A model generated the notes under the pieces. It ran no database searches. It was not told where the DNA came from and was given only the letters and a program-made list of their open reading frames with translations. A stretch of DNA of 64,000 bases from Candidatus Azambacteria bacterium (GTDB lineage Bacteria > Patescibacteriota > Minisyncoccia > UBA10092). The position numbers were made by a program, and so were the translations under genes. Positions 1,089 to 54,717 of the stretch are shown piece by piece. The stretch is taken from the NCBI GenBank assembly GCA_016213445.1, contig JACRAJ010000001.1:14203-78202 (forward strand), read 5' to 3'. How positions within the stretch are numbered: position 1 is the stretch's first letter; each line of letters starts with the position of its first letter.

Positions 1089-1813
1089 TTTCTTTCAAAT
1101 AAATAATAAACATTTACGCCGAGAGGCAAAAACTTCTGAAACGGCGACCAGATAAAATCAAAAAATTTCCATATCGGCAAAGCCAAAAATTGCAAAGATT
1201 TGGGAACCCAAAAAACATAACCGAAACTCGCCGAATCGAGCAATTTAAAATCATTTTTTCCGCCGGAGGCGGATCCGCCTTTGGCGGAAAAAAGTTTTTT
1301 AATAAAGCCGGGCCGCAAAGCGACGGCGCGCATTTTCGCCAAGCTTCGCATCCAATTCAAATCACTGTAAATATTCGGAAAAACAACGATAATTTTAGCG
1401 CCTTTTTTGGTAATCCTCTTCAATTCTTCAAACAACAGTTTCGGGTCGACATATTCCCATACGCCGATGGTCAAAACCAAATCGGCAATGCCTGCCGGAA
1501 TTTCCTTTCCAAATCCGGAACCATGGATGATTTCTTTATCGCCAAAATTTGCCAATTTTTCGCGGCAAACTTTAAGCATCGGCTCCGAAACGTCAATCGC
1601 GTAAATTTTTTTGGCGTTAACTGCCGCTTGGGAATATTCGCAGGTGCCGCATCCCCAATCAACTACGATTTTTCCAACGCTTAAATTTTTAACGATATTT
1701 TTTAAAAACGGCTGCCACAAATTTAAAACATAATTTTCCAAAACCGAATTTTCGGCCCGCCTATCATAAGCCTCGGCATCGATATAATTAAAATTTTTAT
1801 CCTGATAAGCCAT
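1085..1813 (-). CDS. Class I SAM-dependent methyltransferase
   Basis: 242-aa ORF with a motif I-like VVDWGCGTCEYS and a Rossmann-type layout. Carries an in-frame palindromic insert encoding SAKGGSASGGK. Confidence 0.7.
   Translation of the reverse strand: MAYQDKNFNYIDAEAYDRRAENSVLENYVLNLWQPFLKNIVKNLSVGKIVVDWGCGTCEYSQAAVNAKKIYAIDVSEPMLKVCREKLANFGDKEIIHGSGFGKEIPAGIADLVLTIGVWEYVDPKLLFEELKRITKKGAKIIVVFPNIYSDLNWMRSLAKMRAVALRPGFIKKLFSAKGGSASGGKNDFKLLDSASFGYVFWVPKSLQFLALPIWKFFDFIWSPFQKFLPLGVNVYYLFERK
1260..1287. repeat. Near-perfect copy of the 28-bp palindrome inside the methyltransferase gene
   Basis: CCGCCGGAGGCGGATCCGCCTTTGGCGG, flanked by a T-run and an A-run; translated as SAKGGSASGGK. Confidence 0.9.
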
Positions 1814-6777: not shown

Positions 6778-6798
6778 AATAGGTTTCTGACACCTATT
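6778..6798. repeat. REP hairpin copy (AATAGGTTTCTGACACCTATT variant)
   Basis: Member of the AATAGGTGTCGGAAACCTATT family. The flanks extend the palindrome (taaaaac...gttttta). Confidence 0.8.
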
Positions 6799-11116: not shown

Positions 11117-11210
11117 ATGCGGCCATCTTGCGGCCATCTTGCGGCCAACGAATTTGGCCGCAAGATGGCCGCATCGTGTCCCTAACATGGCCGCATTATG
11201 GCCGCATGAG
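11117..11210. repeat. GC-rich ATGGCCGC/GCGGCCAT repeat array with a 19-bp perfect hairpin
   Basis: Three GCGGCCA(T/A) units are followed by four inverted (A)TGGCCGC units. GCGGCCATCTTGCGGCCAA-cgaat-TTGGCCGCAAGATGGCCGC is a perfect inverted repeat. The array overlaps the stop codon of CDS 11196..11813. Confidence 0.85.
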
Positions 11211-16362: not shown

Positions 16363-17200
16363 CCCGCACAAATCAATAGGTGTCGGAAACCTATTAACCT
16401 ATTGGCTTATTCCAAAAAAAGATTATTATCTACGGCTGAAAAATCCAAATCATTCACGAAGTCGCAAAAATGTTTTTTGTATGTGGAAGGCTTGCCAAAA
16501 GTGTCCTTCAAAAAATTCCTTTGCATTATCAGAGAAAAATCAGATTTGCCGATGTAATCCGAATGGCTGGACCATTTGTAATTGTCTATAAATTCGATTG
16601 CTCCCTGCGGTTTCCCCACACCCTGGTTCCGCCAATCCGGACAAGATAAACTTAACGGATTCAAATGGATATAAAATGGAATATATGTAAATTGGGATTC
16701 GTTGTCCATAATCACGGATTTGAATTTTCCCTGAAATAACGGACCGACTCTTTGGTGCTTCAAGTTAAAATAGTTAACATACCCACTGCCCAATTTCCTC
16801 ATAAATTCGGTTATCCCATTTTCCGTCCGCTGGCGTAGCATCAAATGATAATGATTGGGCATTAAACAGAAAGCCAATATATCAACCAAAAATTTTCTTT
16901 TGTGTTCGTCATTCCTAATATCCTTTATTCTTTTCTTGGGATTTATAACCAATTTGGTGTCATTAAAAATTATAAGGTCATCAATAAAACGCTCATAATC
17001 GCGATTATCCACAAATAGGTGGCGCTTCTCCACGCCGCGATTATAAACATGATATATATTATCCGAAACTAATTTATCCTTGCGCATATTAGGTCAATAG
17101 GTTTCTAGGTCAATAGGTTTCCGACACCTATTGAATTCTTATTTAAATTAAAATTTTTATCATAAACCCCGCACAAATCAATAGGTGTCGGAAACCTATT
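16363..17200 (-). mobile_element. REPtron: RAYT-type transposase gene bracketed by REP units
   Basis: The 33-nt unit CCCGCACAAATC-AATAGGTGTCGGAAACCTATT is present at 16363-16395 and 17168-17200. An inverted REP lies at 17112-17132 and a partial tandem copy at 17092-17106. Confidence 0.75.
16407..17087 (-). CDS. IS200/Y1-family, REP-associated tyrosine transposase (RAYT-like)
   Basis: HUH motif in CLMPNHYHLMLRQ and the catalytic-Tyr region YIPFYIHLNPL. The 226-aa size and flanking REP hairpins fit a RAYT rather than an IS200 TnpA. Confidence 0.8.
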   Translation of the reverse strand: MRKDKLVSDNIYHVYNRGVEKRHLFVDNRDYERFIDDLIIFNDTKLVINPKKRIKDIRNDEHKRKFLVDILAFCLMPNHYHLMLRQRTENGITEFMRKLGSGYVNYFNLKHQRVGPLFQGKFKSVIMDNESQFTYIPFYIHLNPLSLSCPDWRNQGVGKPQGAIEFIDNYKWSSHSDYIGKSDFSLIMQRNFLKDTFGKPSTYKKHFCDFVNDLDFSAVDNNLFLE

Positions 17201-17232
17201 AAATATTATACTATGAAATGAAAAAACTGTCA

Positions 17233-17274
17233 GAAACAAAACAACCCCGCAAGCTTGCGGGGTTGTTTTGTTTC
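17233..17274. terminator. 42-bp perfect palindrome terminator (CCCCGCAAGCTTGCGGGG family)
   Basis: GAAACAAAACAACCCCGCAAGC|TTGCGGGGTTGTTTTGTTTC, 23 nt downstream of the stop of 17297..17980. Confidence 0.75.
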
Positions 17275-17296
17275 TTAATTCGGAACTGCCAAAAAA

Positions 17297-38401: not shown

Positions 38402-40918
38402 CTACAAAACGATATTTATCAGCCTGCCGGGCACGAATATTATCTTTTTTATCTCCCCGCCCGCGATATGTTTCTTAATCGCATCGCGGGATAAAACCAA
38501 ATTTTCAATCTCAACGCGATCAAGCCTTTTCGATACTCTGACTTTGTCGCGCAACTTTCCGCCAATTTGAATAAGCAGGTCATAATCCCCTTCTTTAATG
38601 AATTTCGGATCGTATTTCGGCCACGACTCCAGGTGTATCGATTTTTTGTTTCCCAAATTGCGCCAAAACTCTTCGGCTAAATGCGGGGCGAAAGGAGCGA
38701 TTAATTTCAAAAAAGTTCGAGCCTCCTCTTTTGAGAGATTTTCTTTTTCCATTTTATTGAATAAAATCATAAGCGCGCTTACGGCCGTATTGAACCTGAA
38801 ATTTTCAATATCTTCCCCCACTTTTTTTATGGTCTGATGCAATAATCTTTGCAGTTCCTGATTTTCAGCATTTGAAAATTGAGAATTGAAAATTGAAAAT
38901 TTAGCGTATATTCTATCCAAAAATCTCTTTATGCCTAAAATGCCGGTCGAACTCCAAGGCCCGCCCTGGCTGTATTCCCCCATAAAACACAGGTACATTC
39001 TTGCCGTATCGGCGCCATATTTTTCAACCAAATCATCGGGATCAACAATATTTCCCCTGGATTTGGACATTTTTTGGCCGTCTGTGCCGAGGATAATCCC
39101 CTGATGGCGCAAAGCCTCAAAAGGCTCGCCAAACTCCAAATAACCGCTATTTTTCAAAGCTTTGACGAAAAATCTTGAATAAAGCAAATGCATCACCGCA
39201 TGCTCGGCGCCGCCGATGTACATGTTAACCGGAAGCCAGGCGTTTAATTTTTTCTTGTCGGCAAACCGTTTTTTATTTTTCGGGTCGGCATAGCGAAGGA
39301 AGTACCAGGAAGAATCGACAAAGGTATCCATAGTGTCGGTTTCTCTTGTCGCCTTTTTTCCGCATTTCGGACATTTGGCGTTTACAAAATTTTTCGCGCG
39401 CGCCAAGGGCGACTTGCCGCCGGCAACTGGTTTGAAATTTTTAAGCGGAGGCAATCTCACCGGAAGGTTTTTTTCGGGCGCCGCAATCCAGCCGGGATTT
39501 TCAAATTCGCCTTTGGAGAATTCATTGTTTCCGGCGTTTGATTTTCCGTTTCTGATTTTGTCCGCGCAATGTTTGCAAAAAACAATCGGAATGGGCGCGC
39601 CCCAATAGCGCTGGCGGGAAACAATCCAATCGCGCATTTTATACTGCGTCGAAAAATCTCCCAAATTTTTTTCTTTCAGCCATTCGGTGATTTTTTTTCT
39701 TCCTTCGGCCGAATTTACTCCCGTAAATTCGCCCGAATTAACAATAAGGCCGCCTTCAACGTAGGGTTTGTTTTCCGGCCATTCCCGCCCCGGATCGATT
39801 ACTTTCACGATTGGCAAATTGAATTTTTTGGCAAATTCAAAATCGCGCTCATCATGCGCCGGCACGGCCATAATGGCTCCCGTTCCGTAATTCATCAAAA
39901 CATAATCGGAAATCCAGATCGGAATTTTTTCTTCATTTGCCGGATTAACGGCGTAAGCGCCGGTGAAAACTCCGGTTTTTTCACGCTCCAAACTTGTTCT
40001 CTCAAGTTCCGTTTTCAAATGAGCATTGGCGACATAATGGCGGATATCCTCTTTTTGTTCTTTCGTCGCCAGCGACTCAACCAGCGGGTGCTCCGGGGCA
40101 ATAACCAAATAGGTCGCTCCGAAAAGCGTGTCCGGCCGGGTGGTAAACACCTCAATATAGTTTTGGGATTTTGGTAATTGGGATTTGTTTAGAAATTGGA
40201 AATTAGAAATTAGAAATTTAACTTTAGCTCCTTCCGACTTGCCAATCCAATTCTTCTGCATTATTTTTGTGCGCTCCGGCCAATTTAATTTATCCAGATC
40301 TGCCAGCAGCTCATCGGCATAATCGGTTATTTTCAGCATCCATTGATCAATTTCTTTTTGAATAACCAAAGTGTCGGGATGGCGCCAACAACGGCCGTCA
40401 ATCACCTGTTCATTGGCCAAAACCGCCTGATCTTTGGGACACCAATTCGCCAGAGTTTTCTTTTTATACGCCAAGCCGGCTTCGTATAATTTTAAAAACA
40501 TCCACTGGGTCCATTTGTAATAATTCGGATCGGCGCTCACAACTTCCCTCGACCAATCGTAAATATTGCCCATGGACTTGAGCTGTTTTCTCATTGCCGA
40601 AATATTTTTATATGTCCAATCGCGAGGATGAATTTTATTTTTAATGGCGGCGTTTTCCGCCGGAAGCCCGAAAGCGTCAAAACCGATGGGGCTTAAAACG
40701 TTAAAACCTTTCATTCTTTTAAAGCGCGCGTAAACATCGGCCGGCGCATAATTGTACCAGTGGCCCATATGAAGATTGCCCGAAGGATACGGGAACATCA
40801 CCAGATGATAAAAATTGTCCTTGTTTTTAACCCGGTCTTTGGTTTTGTATATGCCGGATTTATCCCAGACTTTCTGCCACTTTTTTTCGATTTTTTCCGC
40901 GTTGCGCATTTTTTTCAA
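38402..40918 (-). CDS. leuS: Leucine--tRNA ligase
   Basis: 838 aa with PYPSGNLHMGHWYNY (HIGH) and KMSKSRGN. Full-length LeuRS with a CP1 editing domain. Two AT-heptamer inserts. Confidence 0.97.
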   Translation of the reverse strand: MKKMRNAEKIEKKWQKVWDKSGIYKTKDRVKNKDNFYHLVMFPYPSGNLHMGHWYNYAPADVYARFKRMKGFNVLSPIGFDAFGLPAENAAIKNKIHPRDWTYKNISAMRKQLKSMGNIYDWSREVVSADPNYYKWTQWMFLKLYEAGLAYKKKTLANWCPKDQAVLANEQVIDGRCWRHPDTLVIQKEIDQWMLKITDYADELLADLDKLNWPERTKIMQKNWIGKSEGAKVKFLISNFQFLNKSQLPKSQNYIEVFTTRPDTLFGATYLVIAPEHPLVESLATKEQKEDIRHYVANAHLKTELERTSLEREKTGVFTGAYAVNPANEEKIPIWISDYVLMNYGTGAIMAVPAHDERDFEFAKKFNLPIVKVIDPGREWPENKPYVEGGLIVNSGEFTGVNSAEGRKKITEWLKEKNLGDFSTQYKMRDWIVSRQRYWGAPIPIVFCKHCADKIRNGKSNAGNNEFSKGEFENPGWIAAPEKNLPVRLPPLKNFKPVAGGKSPLARAKNFVNAKCPKCGKKATRETDTMDTFVDSSWYFLRYADPKNKKRFADKKKLNAWLPVNMYIGGAEHAVMHLLYSRFFVKALKNSGYLEFGEPFEALRHQGIILGTDGQKMSKSRGNIVDPDDLVEKYGADTARMYLCFMGEYSQGGPWSSTGILGIKRFLDRIYAKFSIFNSQFSNAENQELQRLLHQTIKKVGEDIENFRFNTAVSALMILFNKMEKENLSKEEARTFLKLIAPFAPHLAEEFWRNLGNKKSIHLESWPKYDPKFIKEGDYDLLIQIGGKLRDKVRVSKRLDRVEIENLVLSRDAIKKHIAGGEIKKIIFVPGRLINIVL
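38871..38902. repeat. AT heptamer tract in leuS (GAAAATT GAGAATT GAAAATT GAAAATT)
   Basis: Translated in frame as KFSIFNSQFSN. Confidence 0.85.
40161..40222. repeat. ~60-bp AT-rich element in leuS (ATTGGGATTTG head plus GGAAATT AGAAATT AGAAATT)
   Basis: Translated in frame as FLISNFQFLNKSQLPKSQNY, directly before the conserved FTTRPDT motif. The same element is intergenic at 24771-24840 and 46321-46385. Confidence 0.85.
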
Positions 40919-41896: not shown

Positions 41897-43345
41897 TTAC
41901 CGGAGGCGCGGGAAAAGCGCAATAGATTTTTTACTCTCAACCGCTTCGGCGATTTTATCCGAAGTATCCGGCAAAAACGGCGCAACCAGCTTTCCGATTT
42001 CCGAAACCAGATATAAAAGAGCGCCAACTATTTTTTTGTATTCATCGGAATCCGGACTAAGCGTCCACGGTTTTTTGTCATCGACATATTTGTCGCCGGC
42101 GGCGATAATTCGCCAAATGCCATATAACGCATCGCTGAATTTAAAATCTTTCAGCGACTCGCCGATATTTTTATCCGCATCTGCAATAACGGTTTCAAAA
42201 ATTTTCGGCTCCAAAGAAATATCGGACTTCGCGGCCAGCGTTAAAACGCGGCTCGCTAAATTGCCAAGGCCTTTCGCCAGATCGGCATTATATCTTTCTT
42301 CAAACTTTTCATAAGTGAATTCGCCATCTTCTCCCGAAGGAATTTCACGCAACAAATAATATCGCAAAGCGTCGACTCCGTATTTCCCGATGATTTCAAA
42401 CGGATCGACAAGATTTCCGAGCGATTTGGACATTTTTTCCCCGCCTGCGGTTATAAAACCATGCGCCCATATCGTTTTCGGCAAAGGAAGTTTTGCCGCG
42501 AGAAGCATGCCCGGCCATATTGCGGCATGAAATCTCAAAATATCCTTGCCGATAACGTGAATATCGGCAGGCCAATATTTTTTAAACATGCCGCTTGCCG
42601 CTTGCCGCTTGCCGCTATCTTGGCCGTATCCGAGAGCGGTAATATAATTTGACAGCGCGTCGCACCAAACATATATTGTTTGGCTGTCGTCGCCAGGAAC
42701 GGGAATGCCCCAATTCAGATCTTTGCTTGGCCGGGAAAAACTGACGTCCTCCAATCCTTCATTTATTAAAGACAGAATTTCATTCTTGCGTGAAACGGGA
42801 AAAATTCGCAATTCCTCATTTTCAATTTTCGATTTTATTTCTTCCGAGTATTTTGACAGACGAAAAAAATAATTTTCTTCTTCAATAATTTCCGGCTTGG
42901 TTTTGTGAATGGCACAAACGCCTCCGATCAAGTCTTTTTCGGCAACAAACGCTTCATGCCCGGCGCAGTAAAGCCCGCGATAAGCTTTTTTGTAAATATC
43001 ACCCGAATCAACCAATGCCGACCACAATTTTTGAGCTCCCGGCCAATGCCTTTCTTGATCGGAGGTTCTTATAAAATCATCATTCGAAATATCTAAAATT
43101 TCAGCGAGTTTTTTAAATTTAGAAGAGTTTTCGTCAACCAGTTGTTTTGGAGTTTTCCCCGATTTTTCCGCCGTTCTCGCGATTTTTACGCCATGTTCGT
43201 CGGCGCCGGTTAGAAAAAAAACATCATCGCCTTTGGCGCGATGGCGGCGCGCCAAAACATCGGCTTGAACAAATTCCAAAGCATGGCCGATATGCGGGCC
43301 GGCATTCATGTAAGGTATGGAAGTGGTGATGTAAAACTTGTCCAT
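41897..43345 (-). CDS. metG: Methionine--tRNA ligase (short form, no C-terminal tRNA-binding domain)
   Basis: 482 aa with PYMNAGPHIGHALE (HIGH) and KMSKSLGN. Confidence 0.95.
   Translation of the reverse strand: MDKFYITTSIPYMNAGPHIGHALEFVQADVLARRHRAKGDDVFFLTGADEHGVKIARTAEKSGKTPKQLVDENSSKFKKLAEILDISNDDFIRTSDQERHWPGAQKLWSALVDSGDIYKKAYRGLYCAGHEAFVAEKDLIGGVCAIHKTKPEIIEEENYFFRLSKYSEEIKSKIENEELRIFPVSRKNEILSLINEGLEDVSFSRPSKDLNWGIPVPGDDSQTIYVWCDALSNYITALGYGQDSGKRQAASGMFKKYWPADIHVIGKDILRFHAAIWPGMLLAAKLPLPKTIWAHGFITAGGEKMSKSLGNLVDPFEIIGKYGVDALRYYLLREIPSGEDGEFTYEKFEERYNADLAKGLGNLASRVLTLAAKSDISLEPKIFETVIADADKNIGESLKDFKFSDALYGIWRIIAAGDKYVDDKKPWTLSPDSDEYKKIVGALLYLVSEIGKLVAPFLPDTSDKIAEAVESKKSIALFPRLR
42587..42620. 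repeat. GC heptamer tract in metG (CATGCC + 3x GCTTGCC)
   Basis: Translated in frame as DSGKRQAASGM. Confidence 0.9.
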
Positions 43346-49531: not shown

Positions 49532-50029
49532 CTATAACACATTAAAATCGCCGAGATAATACACAGCTTCTTCAAAATTGTCGCCAAAACCCATTATTTT
49601 AACGAGACCGTTTTTATAATCGTTCAAAAACCTATCGGCGCCGCGCTCAATTTCGCGCGCTTTAATAAAATTTCCCAAAATAAAATTCCACATTTCTTCG
49701 TCTTTTTCCTGCCCTTTCAGCATTTTCAAAGTAAAATCCGACATCTTGGCAAAAAGCGCGATTTCGCCCGGCGAAACACCCTCCCCCAGCAGGCTCGCCT
49801 CCGACAAAGCGGTGGTGATAAACAAATCGCCGCCCCTTTTCGCCATCAGCTCAACCCAAATCAAATTAAACGGCTCCAAGTGTCCGGTAAGCTTGGCTTT
49901 GATTTTTCTAACACCGCCGGCAACGGCCCTTACTTTGCCGAAATCTTCGGTATATAAATGATAAAGCCGATCGGCTTCAAAAATATTTTCTCGTTTTAAA
50001 ACAATTGCTTTAGTTTGATACGCCGCCAT
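49532..50029 (-). CDS. recO: DNA repair protein RecO (short)
   Basis: MAAYQTKAIVLKRENIFEADRLYHLYTEDFGKVRAVAGGVRK matches the RecO N-terminal OB-fold pattern. The upstream extension of the track ORF is made of heptamer repeats. Confidence 0.6.
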   Translation of the reverse strand: MAAYQTKAIVLKRENIFEADRLYHLYTEDFGKVRAVAGGVRKIKAKLTGHLEPFNLIWVELMAKRGGDLFITTALSEASLLGEGVSPGEIALFAKMSDFTLKMLKGQEKDEEMWNFILGNFIKAREIERGADRFLNDYKNGLVKIMGFGDNFEEAVYYLGDFNVL

Positions 50030-50040
50030 AATTTTAGTAA

Positions 50041-50112
50041 CATGCGGCATGTGACAAGCGACAGGTTTTTGGAATTTATTTTCCATGTCGCCTGTCGCTT
50101 GTCGCCTGTCGC
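50041..50112. repeat. Inverted pair of GC heptamer tracts at the ileS-recO junction
   Basis: GACAAGC GACAGG (plus orientation, 50053-50065) opposes CCATGTC GCCTGTC GCTTGTC GCCTGTC (50083-50110). A 13-bp stem can form between 50053-50065 and 50091-50103. Confidence 0.85.
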
Positions 50113-53054
50113 TATTTAACTTTAACGATTCCAATCCAAATATTCCTGTTTTCGATTTTAAAATGGCGGTCAACCAACAAGCCGCCTTTGATATTTCCGG
50201 CAAATTCAAGCATTTTGGCGCCGACTTCGGCATTTAAAATATTTTGCCATTTTTGAACAACTCTTTTTAAAGCGTCATCATCGATTTTAAAATAAATTCT
50301 TATCGAGTCTTTCGGCGTCAGCGATCCGTCTTTCCTCATTCCCTGAATTTGCCGCGCCAGTTCTCTTATCATCCCCTCCTCTTTCAATTCAACGGTGATC
50401 TTCGTATCCAGCTCAAAATCTTTTTTAATATTTTTATCGAAAACAATTTCTTTAACGTTAATTTCGTCTTTAATTAAATTTAAAATTTCTTCATTTTTTG
50501 AAAATTGAAAATTAGAAATTGAAAATTTGAGCGAAGCGAGCGGTTGTCTCACCTTTATTCCGGCTTCCGCCCTTAGCGCCAATCCTTTAGCGGCGATTTC
50601 TCTCGCGAGATTCATCTGCTTCTCGAGTTTTTTATTGATCAGCTTAGCGTTTAATTTCGGATAGTCGGCCAAATGAACGCTTTCCTTATTGTCCAATTCT
50701 CGCCAAATATGCTCTGCCAAAAAAGGCGTGAACGGCGCGGAAAGTTTTGCCGTTTCTTCCAAAACCGTTTTCAAAACCGCCGCCGCGCTTTCGCCGTCGT
50801 CGCCGGAAAAACGTTTTCTCGATCGCCTCAACCACCAGCGCGACAAATCATCGATAAAATCGTCAATCGGCCGCGCCGCTTGAGTCACCTCATATTTTTC
50901 TAAATTGCAACGGACAATTTTTATAGTCTGGTTCAGTCGCGACAAAATCCACTTGTCCAACAAACTTGCCGCTTGTCGCTTGCCGCTTGCCGCTTTTACA
51001 GCATATGTTTTATAAAAAACTAAAACATTCGAAAGCGTCAAAACAAACCGCCGCAACCGATCTTCAACGTCGCGAACGGTAAAACGTTTCGATTCGCCCG
51101 GCGGATTGATGGTGAAAAAATACCACCTCAAAGCGTCAACGCCGTATTTGTCGATTATTTCCCACGGATCGACAATATTGCCTCTGGATTTCGACATCTT
51201 TTCGCCTTTTTCATCCAAAATATGGCCCAAGCAAATCACGTTTTTATACGCCGGACCTTTGCCCATTAAAGCGCCGACGGCATGAAGCGTGTAAAACCAG
51301 CCGCGGGTTTGGTCGATGGCTTCGGAAATAAAATCGGCCGGATAATTAAATTTATCGCTTGCCGCCTGCCGCCTGCCGCCTGCCGCTTGATGGGCCTGGG
51401 CAAACGGCATCGCGCCCGAATCAAACCAGACATCGATTACATCTTTAATCCTTTCCATTTTTCCCGAACACTTTTGGCATTTCAAAACCAAATCATCAAC
51501 ATAGGGCCGATGGAGATCCAATTCGCCTTCATTATTATACGGCCAGTTGTGTTCTCCTTTTTTAAGTTTTTTCGCGGAAAATTTATCCAGCTCCCCAAGC
51601 GAGCCGACAATGCGCTCGCTTTTGCATTTTTCGCATTGCCAAACCGGAAGAGGCGTTCCCCAATATCGTTCCCGGGAAATCGCCCAATCTTTTATTTCGT
51701 TCAGCCACTCGCCGAATCGTCCGTTTTTTATGTGCGAAGGAATCCAATTTATTTTTTTATTGTTGGCGACAAGTTTTTTCTTCAGCTTTTCCATTCTTAT
51801 AAACCAAGAGGATTTGGCGTAATATAAAAGCGCGCTGCGGCAGCGCCAGCAAAAAGGATAATCGTGTTCGTATTTTTTTGACTTAACGAAAGCGCCTGAT
51901 CGCTTCAAATAATCGATTATCAAATTTTCCGCTTCCGAAGATTTGACTTTCAAACCTTTCAAACCTGCGCCGAAATCATCGATGAATTTTCCTTCCAAAT
52001 CGACGGTGTGATATTTGGGAAGCCCCGTTTTCGCGCCGAGATTGAAATCGTCAACGCCGTACATCGGCGCAATATGAACAATGCCGGTCCCTTCCTTGGT
52101 ATTTACAAAATCGGCATTATAAATCTTATGGGAATTTTTCGAATTATTTTTTGAAACGTCAAAAAGCGGTTCGTATTTCAAACCGATAAGATTTTTTCCC
52201 GCGGTGAAAATCGATTTCTTTTTCGGCTCTTCCATATTAATGTCATCCTTGAGGCTCTCGGCGAAAATAAAAATATCGCCGTTATCAAGCTCCAAAATTT
52301 CATAATTTACCTTGGCGCCCGCCGCCAAAGCGGCATTTCCCGGCAGTGTCCACGGCGTTGTCGTCCACGATAAAACATAAGTAGCGCCGGTTGTTGCAAA
52401 ATCGCCGCCTTTGGTTTTTAGTTTCTGCCCCGGCTTTAACTTGAACTTCACGTAAATCGAATTTTCGGAAACTTTTTCATAACCTTGGGCCACTTCATGG
52501 CTTGAAAGCGCCGTGCCGCAGCGCGGGCAGTAAGGCACAACTTTAAAATCTTTATAGAGAAGTTTTTTCTTCCAAACTTGCGACAAAATATGCCACAAAG
52601 ATTCGATATAATGCGGTTCATAGGTGATATATGGATTTTTCAAATCCAGCCAAAAACCGACGCGCTCGGTTAATTTATCCCACTCTTCTTTATACTTCCA
52701 AACGGTTTCCTTGGCTTTCTCATTGAATTTTCCAACGCCGTATTTTTCAATGTCTTTTTTATTTTTAAGCTTCAATTCCTGTTCAACCTGAAGCTCTATC
52801 GGAAGGCCGTGCGTGTCCCATCCCGCTCTGCGGCCGACGTAAAAACCGGCCATTGTTTTGTAGCGGCAAATAAGGTCTTTGTAGACCCTCGTTAAAACAT
52901 GGTGAATTCCGGGCCGGCCGTTGGCCGACGGCGGCCCTTCGTAAAAAACAAATTTCTTCGCTTTGGCGCGATTTTTCAGGCTCTTTTCAAAAATCTGTTC
53001 CCGCTTCCAATATTCCAGAATTTTTTCTTCAGTTTTTGGATTGAACAATTCCAT
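50112..53054 (-). CDS. ileS: Isoleucine--tRNA ligase
   Basis: 980 aa with PSANGRPGIHHVL (HIGH) and KMSKSRGN. Two GC-heptamer inserts and one AT-heptamer insert. Confidence 0.97.
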   Translation of the reverse strand: MELFNPKTEEKILEYWKREQIFEKSLKNRAKAKKFVFYEGPPSANGRPGIHHVLTRVYKDLICRYKTMAGFYVGRRAGWDTHGLPIELQVEQELKLKNKKDIEKYGVGKFNEKAKETVWKYKEEWDKLTERVGFWLDLKNPYITYEPHYIESLWHILSQVWKKKLLYKDFKVVPYCPRCGTALSSHEVAQGYEKVSENSIYVKFKLKPGQKLKTKGGDFATTGATYVLSWTTTPWTLPGNAALAAGAKVNYEILELDNGDIFIFAESLKDDINMEEPKKKSIFTAGKNLIGLKYEPLFDVSKNNSKNSHKIYNADFVNTKEGTGIVHIAPMYGVDDFNLGAKTGLPKYHTVDLEGKFIDDFGAGLKGLKVKSSEAENLIIDYLKRSGAFVKSKKYEHDYPFCWRCRSALLYYAKSSWFIRMEKLKKKLVANNKKINWIPSHIKNGRFGEWLNEIKDWAISRERYWGTPLPVWQCEKCKSERIVGSLGELDKFSAKKLKKGEHNWPYNNEGELDLHRPYVDDLVLKCQKCSGKMERIKDVIDVWFDSGAMPFAQAHQAAGGRRQAASDKFNYPADFISEAIDQTRGWFYTLHAVGALMGKGPAYKNVICLGHILDEKGEKMSKSRGNIVDPWEIIDKYGVDALRWYFFTINPPGESKRFTVRDVEDRLRRFVLTLSNVLVFYKTYAVKAASGKRQAASLLDKWILSRLNQTIKIVRCNLEKYEVTQAARPIDDFIDDLSRWWLRRSRKRFSGDDGESAAAVLKTVLEETAKLSAPFTPFLAEHIWRELDNKESVHLADYPKLNAKLINKKLEKQMNLAREIAAKGLALRAEAGIKVRQPLASLKFSISNFQFSKNEEILNLIKDEINVKEIVFDKNIKKDFELDTKITVELKEEGMIRELARQIQGMRKDGSLTPKDSIRIYFKIDDDALKRVVQKWQNILNAEVGAKMLEFAGNIKGGLLVDRHFKIENRNIWIGIVKVK
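50496..50530. repeat. AT heptamer tract in ileS (GAAAATT GAAAATT AGAAATT GAAAATT)
   Basis: Translated in frame as KFSISNFQFSK. Confidence 0.85.
50963..50998. repeat. GC heptamer tract in ileS
   Basis: AACTTGCC GCTTGTC GCTTGCC GCTTGCC; translated as AASGKRQAASL. Confidence 0.9.
51357..51391. repeat. GC heptamer tract in ileS
   Basis: GCTTGCC + 3x GCCTGCC + GCTTGAT; translated as QAAGGRRQAASDK. Confidence 0.9.
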
Positions 53055-53058
53055 ATTT

Positions 53059-54717
53059 TTACATCTTATCAGGAGCTTTGATGCCCATCAAGCTTAAAAC
53101 GTTCGCCAAAACGATTTTGGCTGACAAAACCAACGCCAGACGCGCCGATGTCAGATTTTTATCTTCCGTAATCACTCGTTCCTTTTCGTAAAAATTATGG
53201 AACTCCCGCGCCAGGTCAAGAGCATAGCGCGGCAAACGATGCACTTCATAATTTTCCGCAATCTCCGCCAATAACTCCGGATATTCAACTAATTTTCTAA
53301 TCAAATCCAGCTCGCTCTTTTCTTTCAATATTTCTATATTTGCCGCATGTCGCTTGTCGCTTGTCGCTTGTCGCAAAATGCCGGAAATTCTCGCGTGCGC
53401 GTATTGAACGTAATAAACCGGGTTTTTTTGCGAGCGTTCTTTCGCCAAGGCGATGTCGAAATCCATGTGAGTATTCGGCGAATACATCAAAAAGAAAAAT
53501 CGCGCGGCGTCAAGTCCAACCTCATTAACCAATTCTTCAAGCGTGACAAAAGTTCCGGCGCGTTTGGAAATCTTAAAGCTTTCGCCGCCTTTTACGAGGC
53601 GCACCAATTGAGTGATGATAATTTCCAAATTATCTTCCGGAATGCCCAAAGCCTTGAGCGCCGCTAAAAGCCGCGGCGCGTAGCCGTGATGATCGGCGCC
53701 CCAAATATCAATTGCCTTGTCGAATTTCCTGATTTTAAATTTGTCAAAATGATAAAGAATGTCCGACAAAAAATAAGTTTCCGAACCGTCCTTTTTTATC
53801 AAAACTCTGTCCTCGCTGTCGCCAAGGCTTGATGTTTTCATCCAGGTGGCGCCGTCTTTTTCATAAACAAACCGGCCATCGATTAATTCCCCCATTACTT
53901 CTTCATATATTCCTTGCCGCTTGCCGCTTGCCGCTTGCCGCTTGTCCGCGTAGAGGGTTTTTTCAGAAAACCAAACGTCGAATTTTATTCCCAGCCGTTT
54001 TATCGCCGGCTTGATATATGTTTTTAAAATCAATTCAACCGCTTTTTGACCGGCTTCTCCAACATTCAATTTTTTATCTATTTTCTCCGCCAGTTCATTA
54101 ACATATTCCCCGCGATATAAATTTTCCTCCATGTCGCATGTCGCATGTCGCATGTCGCTTTGCGCCGATTTAATCGACCGCCCTAAATTTAAAACCTGCT
54201 CGCCCCTGTCATTAATATAATACTCGCGCGCGACCTTGTTTCCCTGTGTTTCTAAAACATTTGCCAGCGCATCGCCGTAAAATCCGCCGCGGCCATTGCC
54301 GATAGTTAATGGCCCCGTGGGATTGGCCGAAATAAATTCAACCTGAATCTTTCTTCCGCCGCCGTTTTTGGAAAACCCATATTTATTCTTTCCGCCAAAG
54401 GCGGATCCGCCTTTGGCGGACAAAATTTCTTCCAACTGCCGAAACAAATATTCCGGCGACAGAAAAAAATTTATAAAACCGTTTTTATTTTCGATTTTTG
54501 AAAAATCGAGAACGTTTTGTTTTTTCAATTCGGCGACCAAATTTTCAGCTATCTCTTGCGGCGATTTTTTGAGAAATTTTCCGAGCAAAAAAGCGGCGTT
54601 GGCGGTATAATCGCCATGTTCTTTATTTTCCGGAATTTTAACCGAAATATCGCCCTTGAAATCGGGGGTTAACTTCCGGATAATGCCATAAAGATGCGTT
54701 TTTACAAGCTCTTTCAT
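53059..54717 (-). CDS. argS: Arginine--tRNA ligase
   Basis: 552 aa with EFISANPTGPLTIGNGRGG and a C-terminal DALR anticodon-binding domain. Three heptamer inserts and one palindrome insert. Confidence 0.95.
   Translation of the reverse strand: MKELVKTHLYGIIRKLTPDFKGDISVKIPENKEHGDYTANAAFLLGKFLKKSPQEIAENLVAELKKQNVLDFSKIENKNGFINFFLSPEYLFRQLEEILSAKGGSAFGGKNKYGFSKNGGGRKIQVEFISANPTGPLTIGNGRGGFYGDALANVLETQGNKVAREYYINDRGEQVLNLGRSIKSAQSDMRHATCDMEENLYRGEYVNELAEKIDKKLNVGEAGQKAVELILKTYIKPAIKRLGIKFDVWFSEKTLYADKRQAASGKRQGIYEEVMGELIDGRFVYEKDGATWMKTSSLGDSEDRVLIKKDGSETYFLSDILYHFDKFKIRKFDKAIDIWGADHHGYAPRLLAALKALGIPEDNLEIIITQLVRLVKGGESFKISKRAGTFVTLEELVNEVGLDAARFFFLMYSPNTHMDFDIALAKERSQKNPVYYVQYAHARISGILRQATSDKRHAANIEILKEKSELDLIRKLVEYPELLAEIAENYEVHRLPRYALDLAREFHNFYEKERVITEDKNLTSARLALVLSAKIVLANVLSLMGIKAPDKM
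53345..53379. repeat. GC heptamer tract in argS
   Basis: GCATGTC + 3x GCTTGTC; translated as RQATSDKRHAA. Confidence 0.9.
53911..53946. repeat. GC heptamer tract in argS
   Basis: TCCTTGCC + 3x GCTTGCC + GCTTGTC; translated as ADKRQAASGKRQG. Confidence 0.9.
54129..54163. repeat. GC heptamer tract in argS (GCATGTC variant)
   Basis: CCATGTC + 3x GCATGTC; translated as QSDMRHATCDME. Confidence 0.9.
54392..54419. repeat. 28-bp perfect palindrome CCGCCAAAGGCGGATCCGCCTTTGGCGG in argS
   Basis: Identical to its own reverse complement; translated in frame as SAKGGSAFGGK. A near-identical copy lies at 1260-1287. Confidence 0.95.

What the first reader, a model, noticed from the sequence alone, without database searches (positions are those of the whole stretch)
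53345..54419. argS carries four repeat-derived inserts from two different families
Within 1.1 kb of a single essential gene there are three GC-heptamer tracts (53345-53379, 53911-53946, 54129-54163) and the 28-bp perfect palindrome (54392-54419). Together they contribute about 45 residues. The three heptamer tracts use different unit variants (GCTTGTC, GCTTGCC, GCATGTC), which argues for independent events rather than an internal duplication.
Basis: seen in the sequence. Interest (0 to 1): 0.6.

Follow-up and report, generated by a model that had tools for sequence, protein, structure and literature searches.

The report
Tiny DNA repeats inside essential gene
The arginyl-tRNA synthetase gene of this Candidatus Azambacteria genome carries three 7-base tandem arrays and one 30-base double hairpin that are read through as extra loop residues, one example of an apparently undescribed tendency in these small-genome bacteria to tolerate miniature repeats inside essential genes.

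Summary
argS (53059-54717, minus strand, 552 aa) contains three GC-rich heptamer arrays and a perfect palindrome, all in frame and far above chance. The gene is intact and under strong purifying selection, and no second copy lies in the window.

Alignment with 112 Azambacteria ArgRS shows none of the four segments is conserved ArgRS sequence. The palindrome is a net +8 aa insertion and array s2 an exact +30 nt insertion. Arrays s1 and s3 sit in hypervariable loops without net length gain. Their patchy phylogenetic distribution supports independent events.

The palindrome is a 30-nt double mini-hairpin (TCCGCC-N3-GGCGGA twice). It occurs in at least 120 metagenome contigs, mostly inside housekeeping genes, usually read as SAxGGSAxGG. 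A filled/empty pair shows exact 30-nt insertion at a T|A junction with no target duplication, followed by imprecise deletion.

The heptamer arrays belong to a genome-specific unit family (GRCAWGC, usually four units). Period 7 is the only enriched tandem period here and in 958 kb of related contigs.

Closest analogues are Rickettsia palindromic elements, mitochondrial GC hairpins, cyanobacterial heptamer and small dispersed repeats, and REPs. I rate it a new variant of a known kind. The mobility mechanisms are not shown.

The parts
53059..54717 (-). argS (arginine--tRNA ligase), 552 aa, intact host gene
   Evidence: ORF. 100% identical to an NCBI Ca. Azambacteria ArgRS with Pfam PF03485/PF00750/PF05746. 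Matches PDB 3fnr at E=1.6e-82. dN 0.16-0.21 with dS saturated.
53345..53374 (-). Heptamer array s1. Coding strand GC + GACAAGC x3 + GACATGC, encoding RQATSDKRHA (aa 449-458). Lies in a loop between helices of the anticodon-binding (DALR) domain.
   Evidence: The loop is hypervariable and holds other heptamer arrays in relatives. The same unit family is present at this site in P0042, P0043 and P0015.
53912..53948 (-). Heptamer array s2. Coding strand GACAAGC + GGCAAGC x3 + GGCAAGG, encoding ADKRQAASGKRQG (aa 257-269). Exact +30 nt insertion.
   Evidence: Spacing is 28 residues against 18 in most homologues. Codon alignment shows a 30-nt gap in empty relatives. Unique to this genome. Aligns to a gap in PDB 3fnr.
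54129..54158 (-). Heptamer array s3. Coding strand GC + GACATGC x3 + GACATGG, encoding SDMRHATCDM (aa 187-196).
   Evidence: Same length as the clade consensus loop GEKLNLEKTEL. Orthologous but impure arrays occur in P0002, P0003, P0006 and P0027.
54391..54420 (.). 30-nt double mini-hairpin element TCCGCC-AAA-GGCGGA | TCCGCC-TTT-GGCGGA, here a perfect palindrome. Encodes SAKGGSAFGG (aa 100-109) in the linker between the N-terminal domain and the catalytic core.
   Evidence: Net +8 aa compared with KQ in relatives. RNA hairpin of -26.1 kcal/mol, z = -6. Family analysed.
1259..1288 (.). Second window copy of the double-hairpin element (loops GGA/TTT on the + strand). Encodes SAKGGSASGG in frame in a methyltransferase gene, with flanks TTT|...|AAA.
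27275..27303 (-). Same heptamer family in rpoB (ATSDKRQAT, aa 307-316). A decayed copy lies at 26256-26283 (SGKRQAASDK).
   Evidence: Both sites are hypervariable in RpoB homologues.
42587..42616 (-). Same heptamer family in metG (SGKRQAASGM).
50965..50995 (-). Same heptamer family in ileS (AASGKRQAAS).
51356..51386 (-). Same heptamer family in ileS (GGCAGGC units; QAAGGRRQAAS). Net +7 aa compared with relatives.
50039..50112 (-). Two inverted heptamer arrays filling the ileS-recO spacer. This copy is non-coding yet keeps the 'GC + 4 units' architecture.
   Evidence: Folds to -35.6 kcal/mol, z = -7.1. Relatives have a 4-nt gap here.
50498..50527 (-). AT-rich heptamer array (TTTTCAA family) in ileS (FSISNFQFSKN). 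Two more lie in leuS at 38872-38901 and 40189-40218.

Best explanation
The four segments are copies of two unrelated kinds of very short dispersed repeat. Both accumulate in structurally permissive, hypervariable loops of housekeeping proteins in this lineage and are simply translated. They look like tolerated selfish or neutral DNA rather than ArgRS features.

(1) The palindrome is a discrete 30-nt element made of two 15-nt mini-hairpins. It inserts precisely, without target-site duplication, at T-rich|A-rich junctions (shown). It survives mostly in the one reading frame that yields a flexible Ser/Ala/Gly linker, SAxGGSAxGG (shown; selection is inferred). It later decays by imprecise deletions that also remove native codons, so it drives loop turnover (shown). 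Its mobilising activity is unknown. A single-strand hairpin-recognising HUH/Y1-type transposase acting in trans is the most plausible candidate (inferred).

(2) The heptamer arrays are a genome-specific family (GRCAWGC, typically 'GC + four units', about 30 nt) of the STRR/heptameric-microsatellite type. In coding DNA only changes that preserve the frame survive. Arrays therefore change by 3-unit (21-nt) slippage steps or arrive as roughly 30-nt blocks (both seen). Units within an array evolve in concert (shown by comparing orthologues). The hydrophilic orientation (DKRQATS, not ACRLSLV) is the one retained (shown; selection is inferred). How one unit family comes to occupy many loci, whether by dispersal or ectopic conversion, is not resolved.

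The four argS segments arose at different times.
For: - The repeats are real and belong to families.
- They are not conserved ArgRS sequence and sit at hypervariable sites.
- Their phylogenetic distribution is patchy.
- The gene is functional: dN/dS well below 1, catalytic region conserved across the clade, conserved synteny, and no second copy in the window.
- All four sites fall in low-confidence, mostly non-regular segments of the AF2 model, and s2 aligns to a gap in PDB 3fnr.
- Double-hairpin family: at least 120 metagenome contigs hold 125 copies. 100 lie in long ORFs, and 82 of those 100 are in one frame. Flanks are T at -2 in 74/89 and A at +2 in 78/89.
- Its hosts include DnaE, GyrB, DnaK, MutL, UvrC, RecG, FtsK, AlaRS and PcrA.
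- P0008 versus P0004 shows an exact 30-nt insertion with no duplication. P0007 and P0005 retain half-elements with adjacent native codons deleted.
- The same peptide family is inserted at a different ArgRS position (about 49) and in RpoB of other lineages.
- Heptamers: period 7 dominates 958 kb of related contigs (38 arrays against at most 7 for any other period), lengths peak at 30-32 nt, and 28/38 lie in ORFs.
- +30-nt gains occurred at s2 here and in P0005. +21-nt gains from a 2-unit seed occurred in RpoB, and units changed in concert between orthologues.
- Hydropathy by orientation.
- A RAYT-like Y1 gene with its own flanking hairpins is present in the window, so hairpin mobilisation is plausible in this genome.
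Against: - There is no direct evidence that the segments are translated (no proteomics).
- The AF2 model is weak (mean pLDDT 64), so solvent exposure is inferred, not measured.
- No mobilising enzyme is linked to either family. The window's Y1 gene is flanked by a different hairpin (AATAGGT...ACCTATT), and co-occurrence with Y1 genes in the fetched loci is uninformative.
- Heptamer gains range from +18 to +30 nt, so neither pure slippage nor a fixed cassette explains all cases.
- How one unit family reaches 10 or more loci is unexplained.
- The taxonomy of most metagenome contigs carrying the hairpin was not established.
- Only 64 kb of the genome was seen.
Confidence: 0.68

Rival explanations
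1. The heptamer arrays are ordinary in-situ microsatellites. Each arose locally from a chance seed by replication slippage, with no relationship between loci. The shared unit reflects only mutational or selective convergence.
For: - Exact +21-nt (3-unit) gains from pre-existing 2-unit seeds occur in RpoB.
- The empty site of the P0005 gain already holds a weak AAAAATG...AAATATG proto-repeat.
- Units within an array are homogeneous but differ between arrays.
- The same unit class occurs in unrelated phyla.
- Heptamer SSRs are known to be over-represented in bacteria (PMC4692102).
Against: - All 10 GC-rich arrays in a 44% GC window share one unit family, which varies at only two positions.
- Eight of nine have the same 'GC + exactly four units' architecture, including an intergenic copy with no frame constraint.
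- Two independent gains at ArgRS s2 are +30 nt, which is not a multiple of 7.
- Copy number stays at four across orthologues.
Confidence: 0.2
2. The segments are adaptive. They would be lineage-specific ArgRS modules (for example tRNA or partner contacts) or regulatory mRNA/DNA structures selected at these positions.
For: - The palindrome forms a very stable mRNA hairpin (-26 kcal/mol, z = -6).
- The inverted arrays between ileS and recO form a -35.6 kcal/mol hairpin that could act as a terminator or attenuator.
- Heptamer arrays persist at the same loops in many lineages.
Against: - Sequences at each site are not conserved between lineages, and many relatives lack them entirely.
- The same elements occur in dozens of unrelated proteins.
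- Copies decay and are deleted.
- The heptamer arrays have no RNA structure (z about 0).
Confidence: 0.07
3. Both families are written by one dedicated machinery that inserts roughly 30-nt cassettes into DNA, such as an HUH/Y1, integrase-like or reverse-transcriptase-based system. This would be a new class of ultra-small mobile element.
For: - The length is shared. The hairpin element is exactly 30 nt. GC arrays are 'GC + 4 units' = 30 nt. The three intragenic AT-rich arrays are 30 nt by TRF. Many other recent indels between close relatives are exactly 10 aa.
- Hairpins are found nested inside heptamer arrays (L008; P0015).
- Insertion leaves no target duplication.
Against: - Heptamer gains of +18, +21 and +24 nt also occur.
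- No enzyme is linked to either family.
- The families share no sequence or target motif.
Confidence: 0.12
4. Artefact or pseudogene: assembly chimeras or a decaying argS copy.
For: None beyond the unusual look of GC-rich repeats in an AT-rich gene (64% against 42% GC).
Against: - All segments are in frame with no stop codons.
- The same element types occur at orthologous and other sites in independent assemblies from NCBI, ENA and JGI.
- Purifying selection is strong.
- The protein is full length with all clade-invariant residues.
Confidence: 0.02

Closest known systems
Rickettsia palindromic elements (RPEs; Ogata et al. 2000, 2002, as summarised in PMC10969869)
   Same: Palindromic repeats are inserted in frame into unrelated housekeeping genes. 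They are translated as extra peptide segments at positions compatible with protein fold and function, in a reduced-genome bacterium.
   Different: RPEs are about 100-150 bp and restricted to Rickettsia. Here the element is 30 nt, made of two 6-bp-stem/3-nt-loop hairpins, occurs in Patescibacteria-type contigs, and shows exact insertion without target duplication at a T|A junction. No sequence relationship.
Mitochondrial GC-rich hairpin elements: placozoan/sponge GGVBCC-N3-GGVBCC hairpins and fungal double-hairpin elements (PMC7813641, PMC10085805)
   Same: The unit anatomy is the same (6-bp GC stem, 3-nt loop, and in DHEs two hairpins). They proliferate in intergenic regions and in protein-coding or rRNA genes, are thought to be mobile, and their mechanism is unknown.
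   Different: Those are organellar. Here the host is a free bacterial chromosome, the sequence differs, and there is a strong bias to one reading frame.
REP/REPIN elements mobilised by RAYT (Y1/HUH) transposases (PMC3116915, PMC3337134, PMC3733652)
   Same: Both are 20-40 nt GC-rich hairpins, highly repeated, with no target duplication. A RAYT-like gene is present in this window with its own REPIN-like hairpin pairs.
   Different: REPs are by definition extragenic, usually carry a GTAG or CGTC tag, and flank their RAYT. The TCCGCC element is about 80% intragenic, has no such tag, and does not flank the Y1 gene.
Cyanobacterial STRR heptamer repeats and 'very small mobile repeated elements' (SDRs, 21-27 nt; Elhai et al. 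2008, Genome Res 18:1484). Cited from memory and via PMC5861425; the paper itself was not readable here.
   Same: Genome-specific families of tandem heptanucleotides coexist with about 25-nt hairpin-forming mobile repeats that insert into each other and into the heptamer arrays.
   Different: The cyanobacterial elements are largely intergenic. Here most copies are inside essential coding sequences and are translated. The phylum and the sequences differ.
Heptameric SSRs of Xanthomonas/Nostoc (GGGNATC; Rehm et al. 2015, PMC4692102)
   Same: [quoted passage not shown]
   Different: [quoted passage not shown] Here the units cannot form G4, yet the same copy number of about four is seen, and 28/38 arrays are in ORFs.

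Membership tests
Rickettsia palindromic elements (RPE) | Palindromic repeat inserted in frame in protein-coding genes and read through | tested here: met
Rickettsia palindromic elements (RPE) | Element length about 100-150 bp encoding a conserved peptide of about 30-50 aa, with sequence families shared with Rickettsia | tested here: not met
   The element is exactly 30 nt (10 aa). It works like an RPE but is not a member.
REP/REPIN-RAYT | Short (20-40 nt) GC-rich imperfect palindrome in many copies | tested here: met
REP/REPIN-RAYT | Extragenic location | tested here: not met
   100 of 125 copies lie inside open frames of at least 100 codons. Both window copies are intragenic.
REP/REPIN-RAYT | Cognate RAYT gene flanked by the same REP, and a GTAG/CGTC tag at one end | tested here: not met
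   The window's Y1 gene (16407-17087) is flanked by a different hairpin, AATAGGT-TTCCGAC-ACCTATT. The TCCGCC element has T-rich and A-rich flanks and no GTAG/CGTC.
MITE (transposase-derived miniature inverted-repeat element) | Terminal inverted repeats plus target-site duplication on insertion | tested here: not met
   The filled/empty pair P0008/P0004 shows an exact 30-nt insertion with no duplicated bases.
STRR / heptameric simple sequence repeats | Head-to-tail heptanucleotide units, dispersed at many loci, with genome-specific unit families | tested here: met
STRR / heptameric simple sequence repeats | Predominantly intergenic location | tested here: not met
   8 of the 11 GC-rich tract loci in the window, and 28 of 38 arrays in 958 kb of related contigs, are inside ORFs.
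Phase-variable contingency locus | Out-of-frame unit repeat in a surface or virulence gene whose copy number varies and switches the frame | tested here: not met
   The hosts are essential housekeeping genes. Copy number is four in all orthologous arrays compared. All copies are in frame.
Cyanobacterial small dispersed repeats (SDR) | 21-27 nt hairpin-forming mobile repeats, nested in each other and in heptamer arrays | tested here: inconclusive
   Size is similar (30 nt), and nesting in heptamer arrays is seen (L008; P0015). The defining paper could not be read, and there is no sequence relationship.
Arginyl-tRNA synthetase (class I aaRS) | N-terminal Arg_tRNA_synt_N, catalytic tRNA-synt_1d and DALR anticodon-binding domains, full length | tested here: met
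   The HIGH motif reads TIGN, but this holds in 111 of the 112 clade homologues (one has TIGH).

The most novel reading that the evidence does not exclude
Patescibacteria may harbour a previously undescribed class of ultra-small (about 30 nt) mobile cassettes, comprising double mini-hairpins and four-unit heptamer arrays. A dedicated single-strand DNA machinery would write them, without target duplication, into T|A-rich junctions. Through insertion followed by imprecise deletion, they would be a major engine of loop evolution in the essential proteins of these reduced genomes.
Probability: 0.15. Interest if true: 0.8.

Novelty: new variant of a known kind. Interest (0 to 1): 0.6.

Why it matters
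Selfish DNA inside protein-coding genes has been regarded as a Rickettsia and organelle curiosity. Here the same behaviour appears in the Candidate Phyla Radiation with far smaller elements. It hits the most essential genes, including aminoacyl-tRNA synthetases, RNA polymerase, DnaE, GyrB and DnaK.

There are three practical consequences:
- Much of the 'CPR-specific insertion' signal in conserved proteins may be repeat-derived. It should be masked in phylogenies, alignments and structure predictions.
- Filled, empty and decayed allele series give a tractable system for studying how loops of essential proteins gain and lose residues.
- Exact 30-nt insertion without duplication, and the preference for about four units in heptamers that cannot form G-quadruplexes, both constrain mechanisms that remain unknown. 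The second point bears on similar repeats in cyanobacteria, xanthomonads and mitochondria.

Tried and rejected
1. Strict 30-nt quantum for heptamer arrays. ArgRS s2, P0005 and the register alignment suggested it. RpoB and IleRS show +18/+21/+24-nt gains, so I dropped it as a rule.
2. Clade specificity of the GCWTGYC unit. The genome-contig scan found the strict 4-unit pattern in Streptomyces, Pseudomonas, Burkholderia, Woesearchaeota, Saccharibacteria and others.
3. The perfect palindrome as a family property. Only 16/125 copies have complementary loops. The window's perfect copy is not the rule, so a long cruciform is not required.
4. Phage vector. Only 2 viral contigs carry the hairpin element.
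5. RAYT as the demonstrated mobiliser. The window's Y1 gene has its own different hairpins, and Y1 homologues occur in only 2 other CPR loci. This remains a hypothesis only.
6. Structure-based exposure. The AF2 model from 52 close homologues reached only pLDDT 64 / pTM 0.47. I used it only as weak support and ran no fold search on it.
7. Elhai et al. 2008 could not be retrieved by DOI or PMC id.
8. Literature searches for heptanucleotide repeats or in-frame palindromes in CPR, and for the peptide or DNA strings themselves, found nothing relevant.
9. HIGH -> TIGN as a pseudogene sign. Rejected, because it is conserved across the clade.
Full report
**Observation.** The window's argS is the ORF at 53059-54717 on the minus strand (552 aa). 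It is 100% identical to an NCBI protein annotated as arginine--tRNA ligase of Candidatus Azambacteria (Patescibacteria/CPR). The three heptamer arrays are at 53345-53374, 53912-53948 and 54129-54158. The perfect palindrome at 54392-54419 extends to a perfect 30-mer at 54391-54420. None of this is chance. The 3-unit degenerate heptamer pattern occurs 23 times in the window against 0.01 expected. The palindrome occurs twice against 0 expected. Among tandem periods 4 to 15, only period 7 has perfect arrays of at least 3 copies: six in the window, none in shuffles. Together the segments encode about 43 residues.

**Are they inserts?** I aligned 112 full-length Azambacteria ArgRS homologues at 57-74% identity. 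I then aligned codons for relatives whose DNA I fetched.
- The palindrome replaces 'KQ' with 'SAKGGSAFGG', a net +8 aa.
- Array s2 is a clean +10 aa, exactly 30 nt, relative to the 18-residue spacing seen in most homologues. It also aligns to a gap in the solved C. jejuni ArgRS, 3fnr.
- Arrays s3 and s1 bring no net gain. s3 has the same length as the clade's consensus loop (GEKLNLEKTEL). s1 lies in a loop that is hypervariable in every lineage.

None of the four is conserved ArgRS sequence. The gene is nonetheless functional. dN is 0.16-0.21 with dS saturated. The unusual TIGN in place of HIGH is shared by 111 of 112 homologues; one has TIGH. The smpB-argS-ileS-recO locus is conserved in relatives. 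No second argS-like sequence exists in the window. In a moderate AlphaFold model (pLDDT 64), all four positions fall in segments below pLDDT 50 between secondary-structure elements. That is weak but consistent support for loop locations.

**Independent events.** On a neighbour-joining tree of the 112 proteins:
- s2 is unique to this genome.
- The palindrome is shared only with a distant pair (P0027, P0047).
- s3 is shared with sister P0003 but not with sister P0042.
- s1 is shared with P0042 but not with P0003.

**The palindrome family.** The 30-mer consists of two 15-nt mini-hairpins, TCCGCC-N3-GGCGGA repeated twice. A second copy lies in frame in a methyltransferase gene at 1259-1288. Relatives carry copies in IleRS (L003), nested inside an AT-rich heptamer array in ArgRS (L008), at ArgRS position about 49 (P0008, P0018), and in RpoB (P0187).

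- 100 copies lie in open frames of at least 100 codons.
- 82 of those 100 are in the single frame read as SAxGGSAxGG.
- Only 16 of the 125 are perfect palindromes in the loops.
- Flanks are strongly T-rich upstream and A-rich downstream: T at -2 in 74/89 and A at +2 in 78/89.
- Ten host ORFs classify as DnaG-type primase, FtsK, RecG, DnaE, MutL, AlaRS, GyrB, UvrC, DnaK and PcrA.

A filled/empty comparison among genes 90-97% identical is decisive. P0008 has CTT|30-mer|AAAAAATC where P0004 has CTT|AGAAAATC. The insertion is exactly 30 nt, the T/A flanks pre-exist, and nothing is duplicated. P0007 and P0005 retain only half-elements with adjacent native codons deleted. Insertion followed by imprecise deletion therefore remodels the loop. 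This also explains the window's net +8 (30 nt gained, 6 lost) and the decayed copy at the same site in L002. As RNA the window copy folds to -26.1 kcal/mol, z = -6. The element is nearly absent from viral contigs.

**The heptamer family.** On the coding strand, eight of the window's nine aligned GC-rich arrays read '...GC' followed by exactly four GRCAWGC units; ArgRS s2 has five. This includes the non-coding copy in the ileS-recO spacer. Variation is confined to two unit positions. Host genes are rpoB (two arrays), metG, ileS (two) and argS (three). A reversed copy supplies the start codon of a PolX gene. An AT-rich family (TTTTCAA) occupies leuS (two arrays) and ileS.

In 958 kb of related contigs, period 7 gives 38 arrays against at most 7 for any other period. 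Lengths peak at 30-32 nt, 28 of 38 arrays lie in ORFs, and units are very diverse between contigs. At orthologous loops in ArgRS s1, the IleRS C-terminal loop and both RpoB sites, different lineages carry heptamer arrays with different units. The closest RpoB relative (84% identity) has orthologous arrays whose units differ consistently in every copy, which indicates concerted evolution.

Gains are of two kinds. Some are exactly +21 nt from a pre-existing 2-unit seed (P0155 versus P0165 in RpoB), as in-frame slippage predicts. Others are exactly +30 nt (ArgRS s2 here; P0005 versus P0004), which slippage alone does not give. In genes the arrays are read in the hydrophilic sense (DKRQATS, hydropathy -2.2) rather than as ACRLSLV (+1.5). 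The arrays have no RNA structure (z about 0). The strict four-unit GCWTGYC pattern also occurs in many unrelated phyla, so the unit class itself is not clade-specific.

**Mechanism: shown versus inferred.**
- Shown: both families are dispersed. Both sit in hypervariable loops of essential genes, in frame. The hairpin element inserts as an exact 30-nt unit at T|A junctions without duplication and decays by deletion. Heptamer arrays change by 21- and 30-nt steps and evolve in concert.
- Inferred: the segments are translated and tolerated because they add short, hydrophilic or flexible loop residues. Frame and orientation biases reflect purifying selection on the peptide.
- Inferred, for the hairpin element: it is mobilised in trans by a single-strand, hairpin-recognising activity. 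The window does encode a RAYT-like Y1/HUH protein (16407-17087). That gene is flanked by its own, different, strictly intergenic REPIN-like hairpin pairs, so it is a candidate class and not a demonstrated agent.
- Open: how one heptamer unit family comes to occupy ten or more loci, whether by dispersal of cassettes or by ectopic conversion among pre-existing arrays.

**Comparison with known systems.**
- Functionally, the closest parallel is the Rickettsia palindromic elements, which insert in frame into housekeeping genes. They are 100-150 bp, so this element works like an RPE but is not one.
- Structurally, the closest parallels are mitochondrial GC hairpins with 6-bp stems and 3-nt loops, and double-hairpin elements. 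These invade intergenic and coding regions, and their mechanism is unknown.
- REP/REPIN-RAYT membership fails on extragenic location, end tag and RAYT flanking.
- MITE membership fails on target duplication.
- The heptamer arrays match STRR and heptameric SSRs in anatomy. They also show the preference for about four units reported for G-rich repeats in Xanthomonas and Nostoc. They differ in being mostly intragenic and unable to form G-quadruplexes, which suggests the four-unit preference is not explained by G4 formation.
- The combination of heptamer arrays with nested hairpin repeats of about 25-30 nt recalls cyanobacterial SDRs (Elhai 2008). I cite that from memory and from PMC5861425.
- I found no paper describing these elements in CPR bacteria.

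**Verdict.** argS itself is an ordinary, functional gene. The interest lies in what it hosts: an instance of a wider, apparently undescribed phenomenon in Patescibacteria, rated as a new variant of a known kind. The mechanisms remain unproven. Interest 0.6.

Noticed in passing
window 16407-17087 (-), with hairpins at 6778, 11831/11897, 16373, 17112/17178, 20962/21029: A 226-aa Y1/HUH protein (PF01797; best NCBIfam match is REP-associated tyrosine transposase, below cutoff; HUH = NHYHLML). It is flanked on both sides by the hairpin AATAGGT-TTCCGAC-ACCTATT. The same hairpin occurs at 8 intergenic loci, mostly as inverted pairs about 45 nt apart, which is a REPIN/RAYT-like system in a CPR genome. 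It is absent from the 250 loci fetched at the time of that search.
   Followed up: partly
window 50029-50112: The ileS-recO spacer is about 80 nt here, against 4 nt in relatives. It consists of two inverted heptamer arrays that fold into a -35.6 kcal/mol hairpin (z = -7.1). This may be a terminator- or attenuator-like structure built from repeat arrays.
   Followed up: partly
window 58692-58712 and about 58745-58775: The start codon of the PolX (pol beta-like + PHP) gene lies inside a reversed heptamer array (TTGTCGC ATGTCGC ATGTCAC). The 3' end of the upstream MFS gene carries a degenerate array (GCGACAT ATAACAT GAGACAT GGCGCAT).
   Followed up: no
window 53059-54717, ArgRS residues 138-141: The class I HIGH signature reads TIGN. 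T at position 1 is found in 112/112 Azambacteria homologues and N at position 4 in 111/112, so this is a clade-wide departure from the canonical motif.
   Followed up: partly
window 18491-20749: 16S rRNA (19254-20749, -) is followed by tRNA-Ile and tRNA-Ala. No 23S rRNA match occurs anywhere in the window, and the next genes are protein-coding. The rRNA operon appears to be unlinked.
   Followed up: no
window 17232-17275, 19063-19114, 56743-56772: Three terminator-like perfect palindromes share the core CCCGCAAGCTTGCGGG. This is yet another small shared hairpin family, located at gene ends.
   Followed up: no
window 11118-11207: An intergenic block of 11-nt repeats (TGCGGCCATCT x2.7) is followed by inverted copies (ATGGCCGCA...), forming a long imperfect inverted repeat. 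Function unknown.
   Followed up: no
loci L003 11675-15121 and L250 4646-7641 (IleRS of relatives); L249 5906-7300 and L007 11655-12014: In two relatives IleRS carries an inserted His_Phos_1 (phosphatase) domain of about 170 aa that is absent from the window's IleRS. Other relatives have diversity-generating-retroelement parts between argS and ileS: bAvd plus a reverse transcriptase in L249, and bAvd alone in L007. Still others have a PaaX/Cas2-like gene there.
   Followed up: no
ArgRS and RpoB homologues: Further repeat-like peptide families occupy the same loops in other lineages. PSSPRLRRAS/PSLKLRR and FAKASEGK appear to derive from hairpins. IPGTEE...MVPGIS derives from a roughly 44-nt inverted repeat. 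Many are exactly 10-aa indels between close relatives.
   Followed up: partly
window 31893-37232 (-): A 1779-aa ORF with an N-terminal HTH_17 and a Peptidase_S74 (endosialidase chaperone) domain lies in the window's highest-GC segment (50% GC against 44% overall, with positive GC skew). It may be of phage or tail-fibre-like origin.
   Followed up: no
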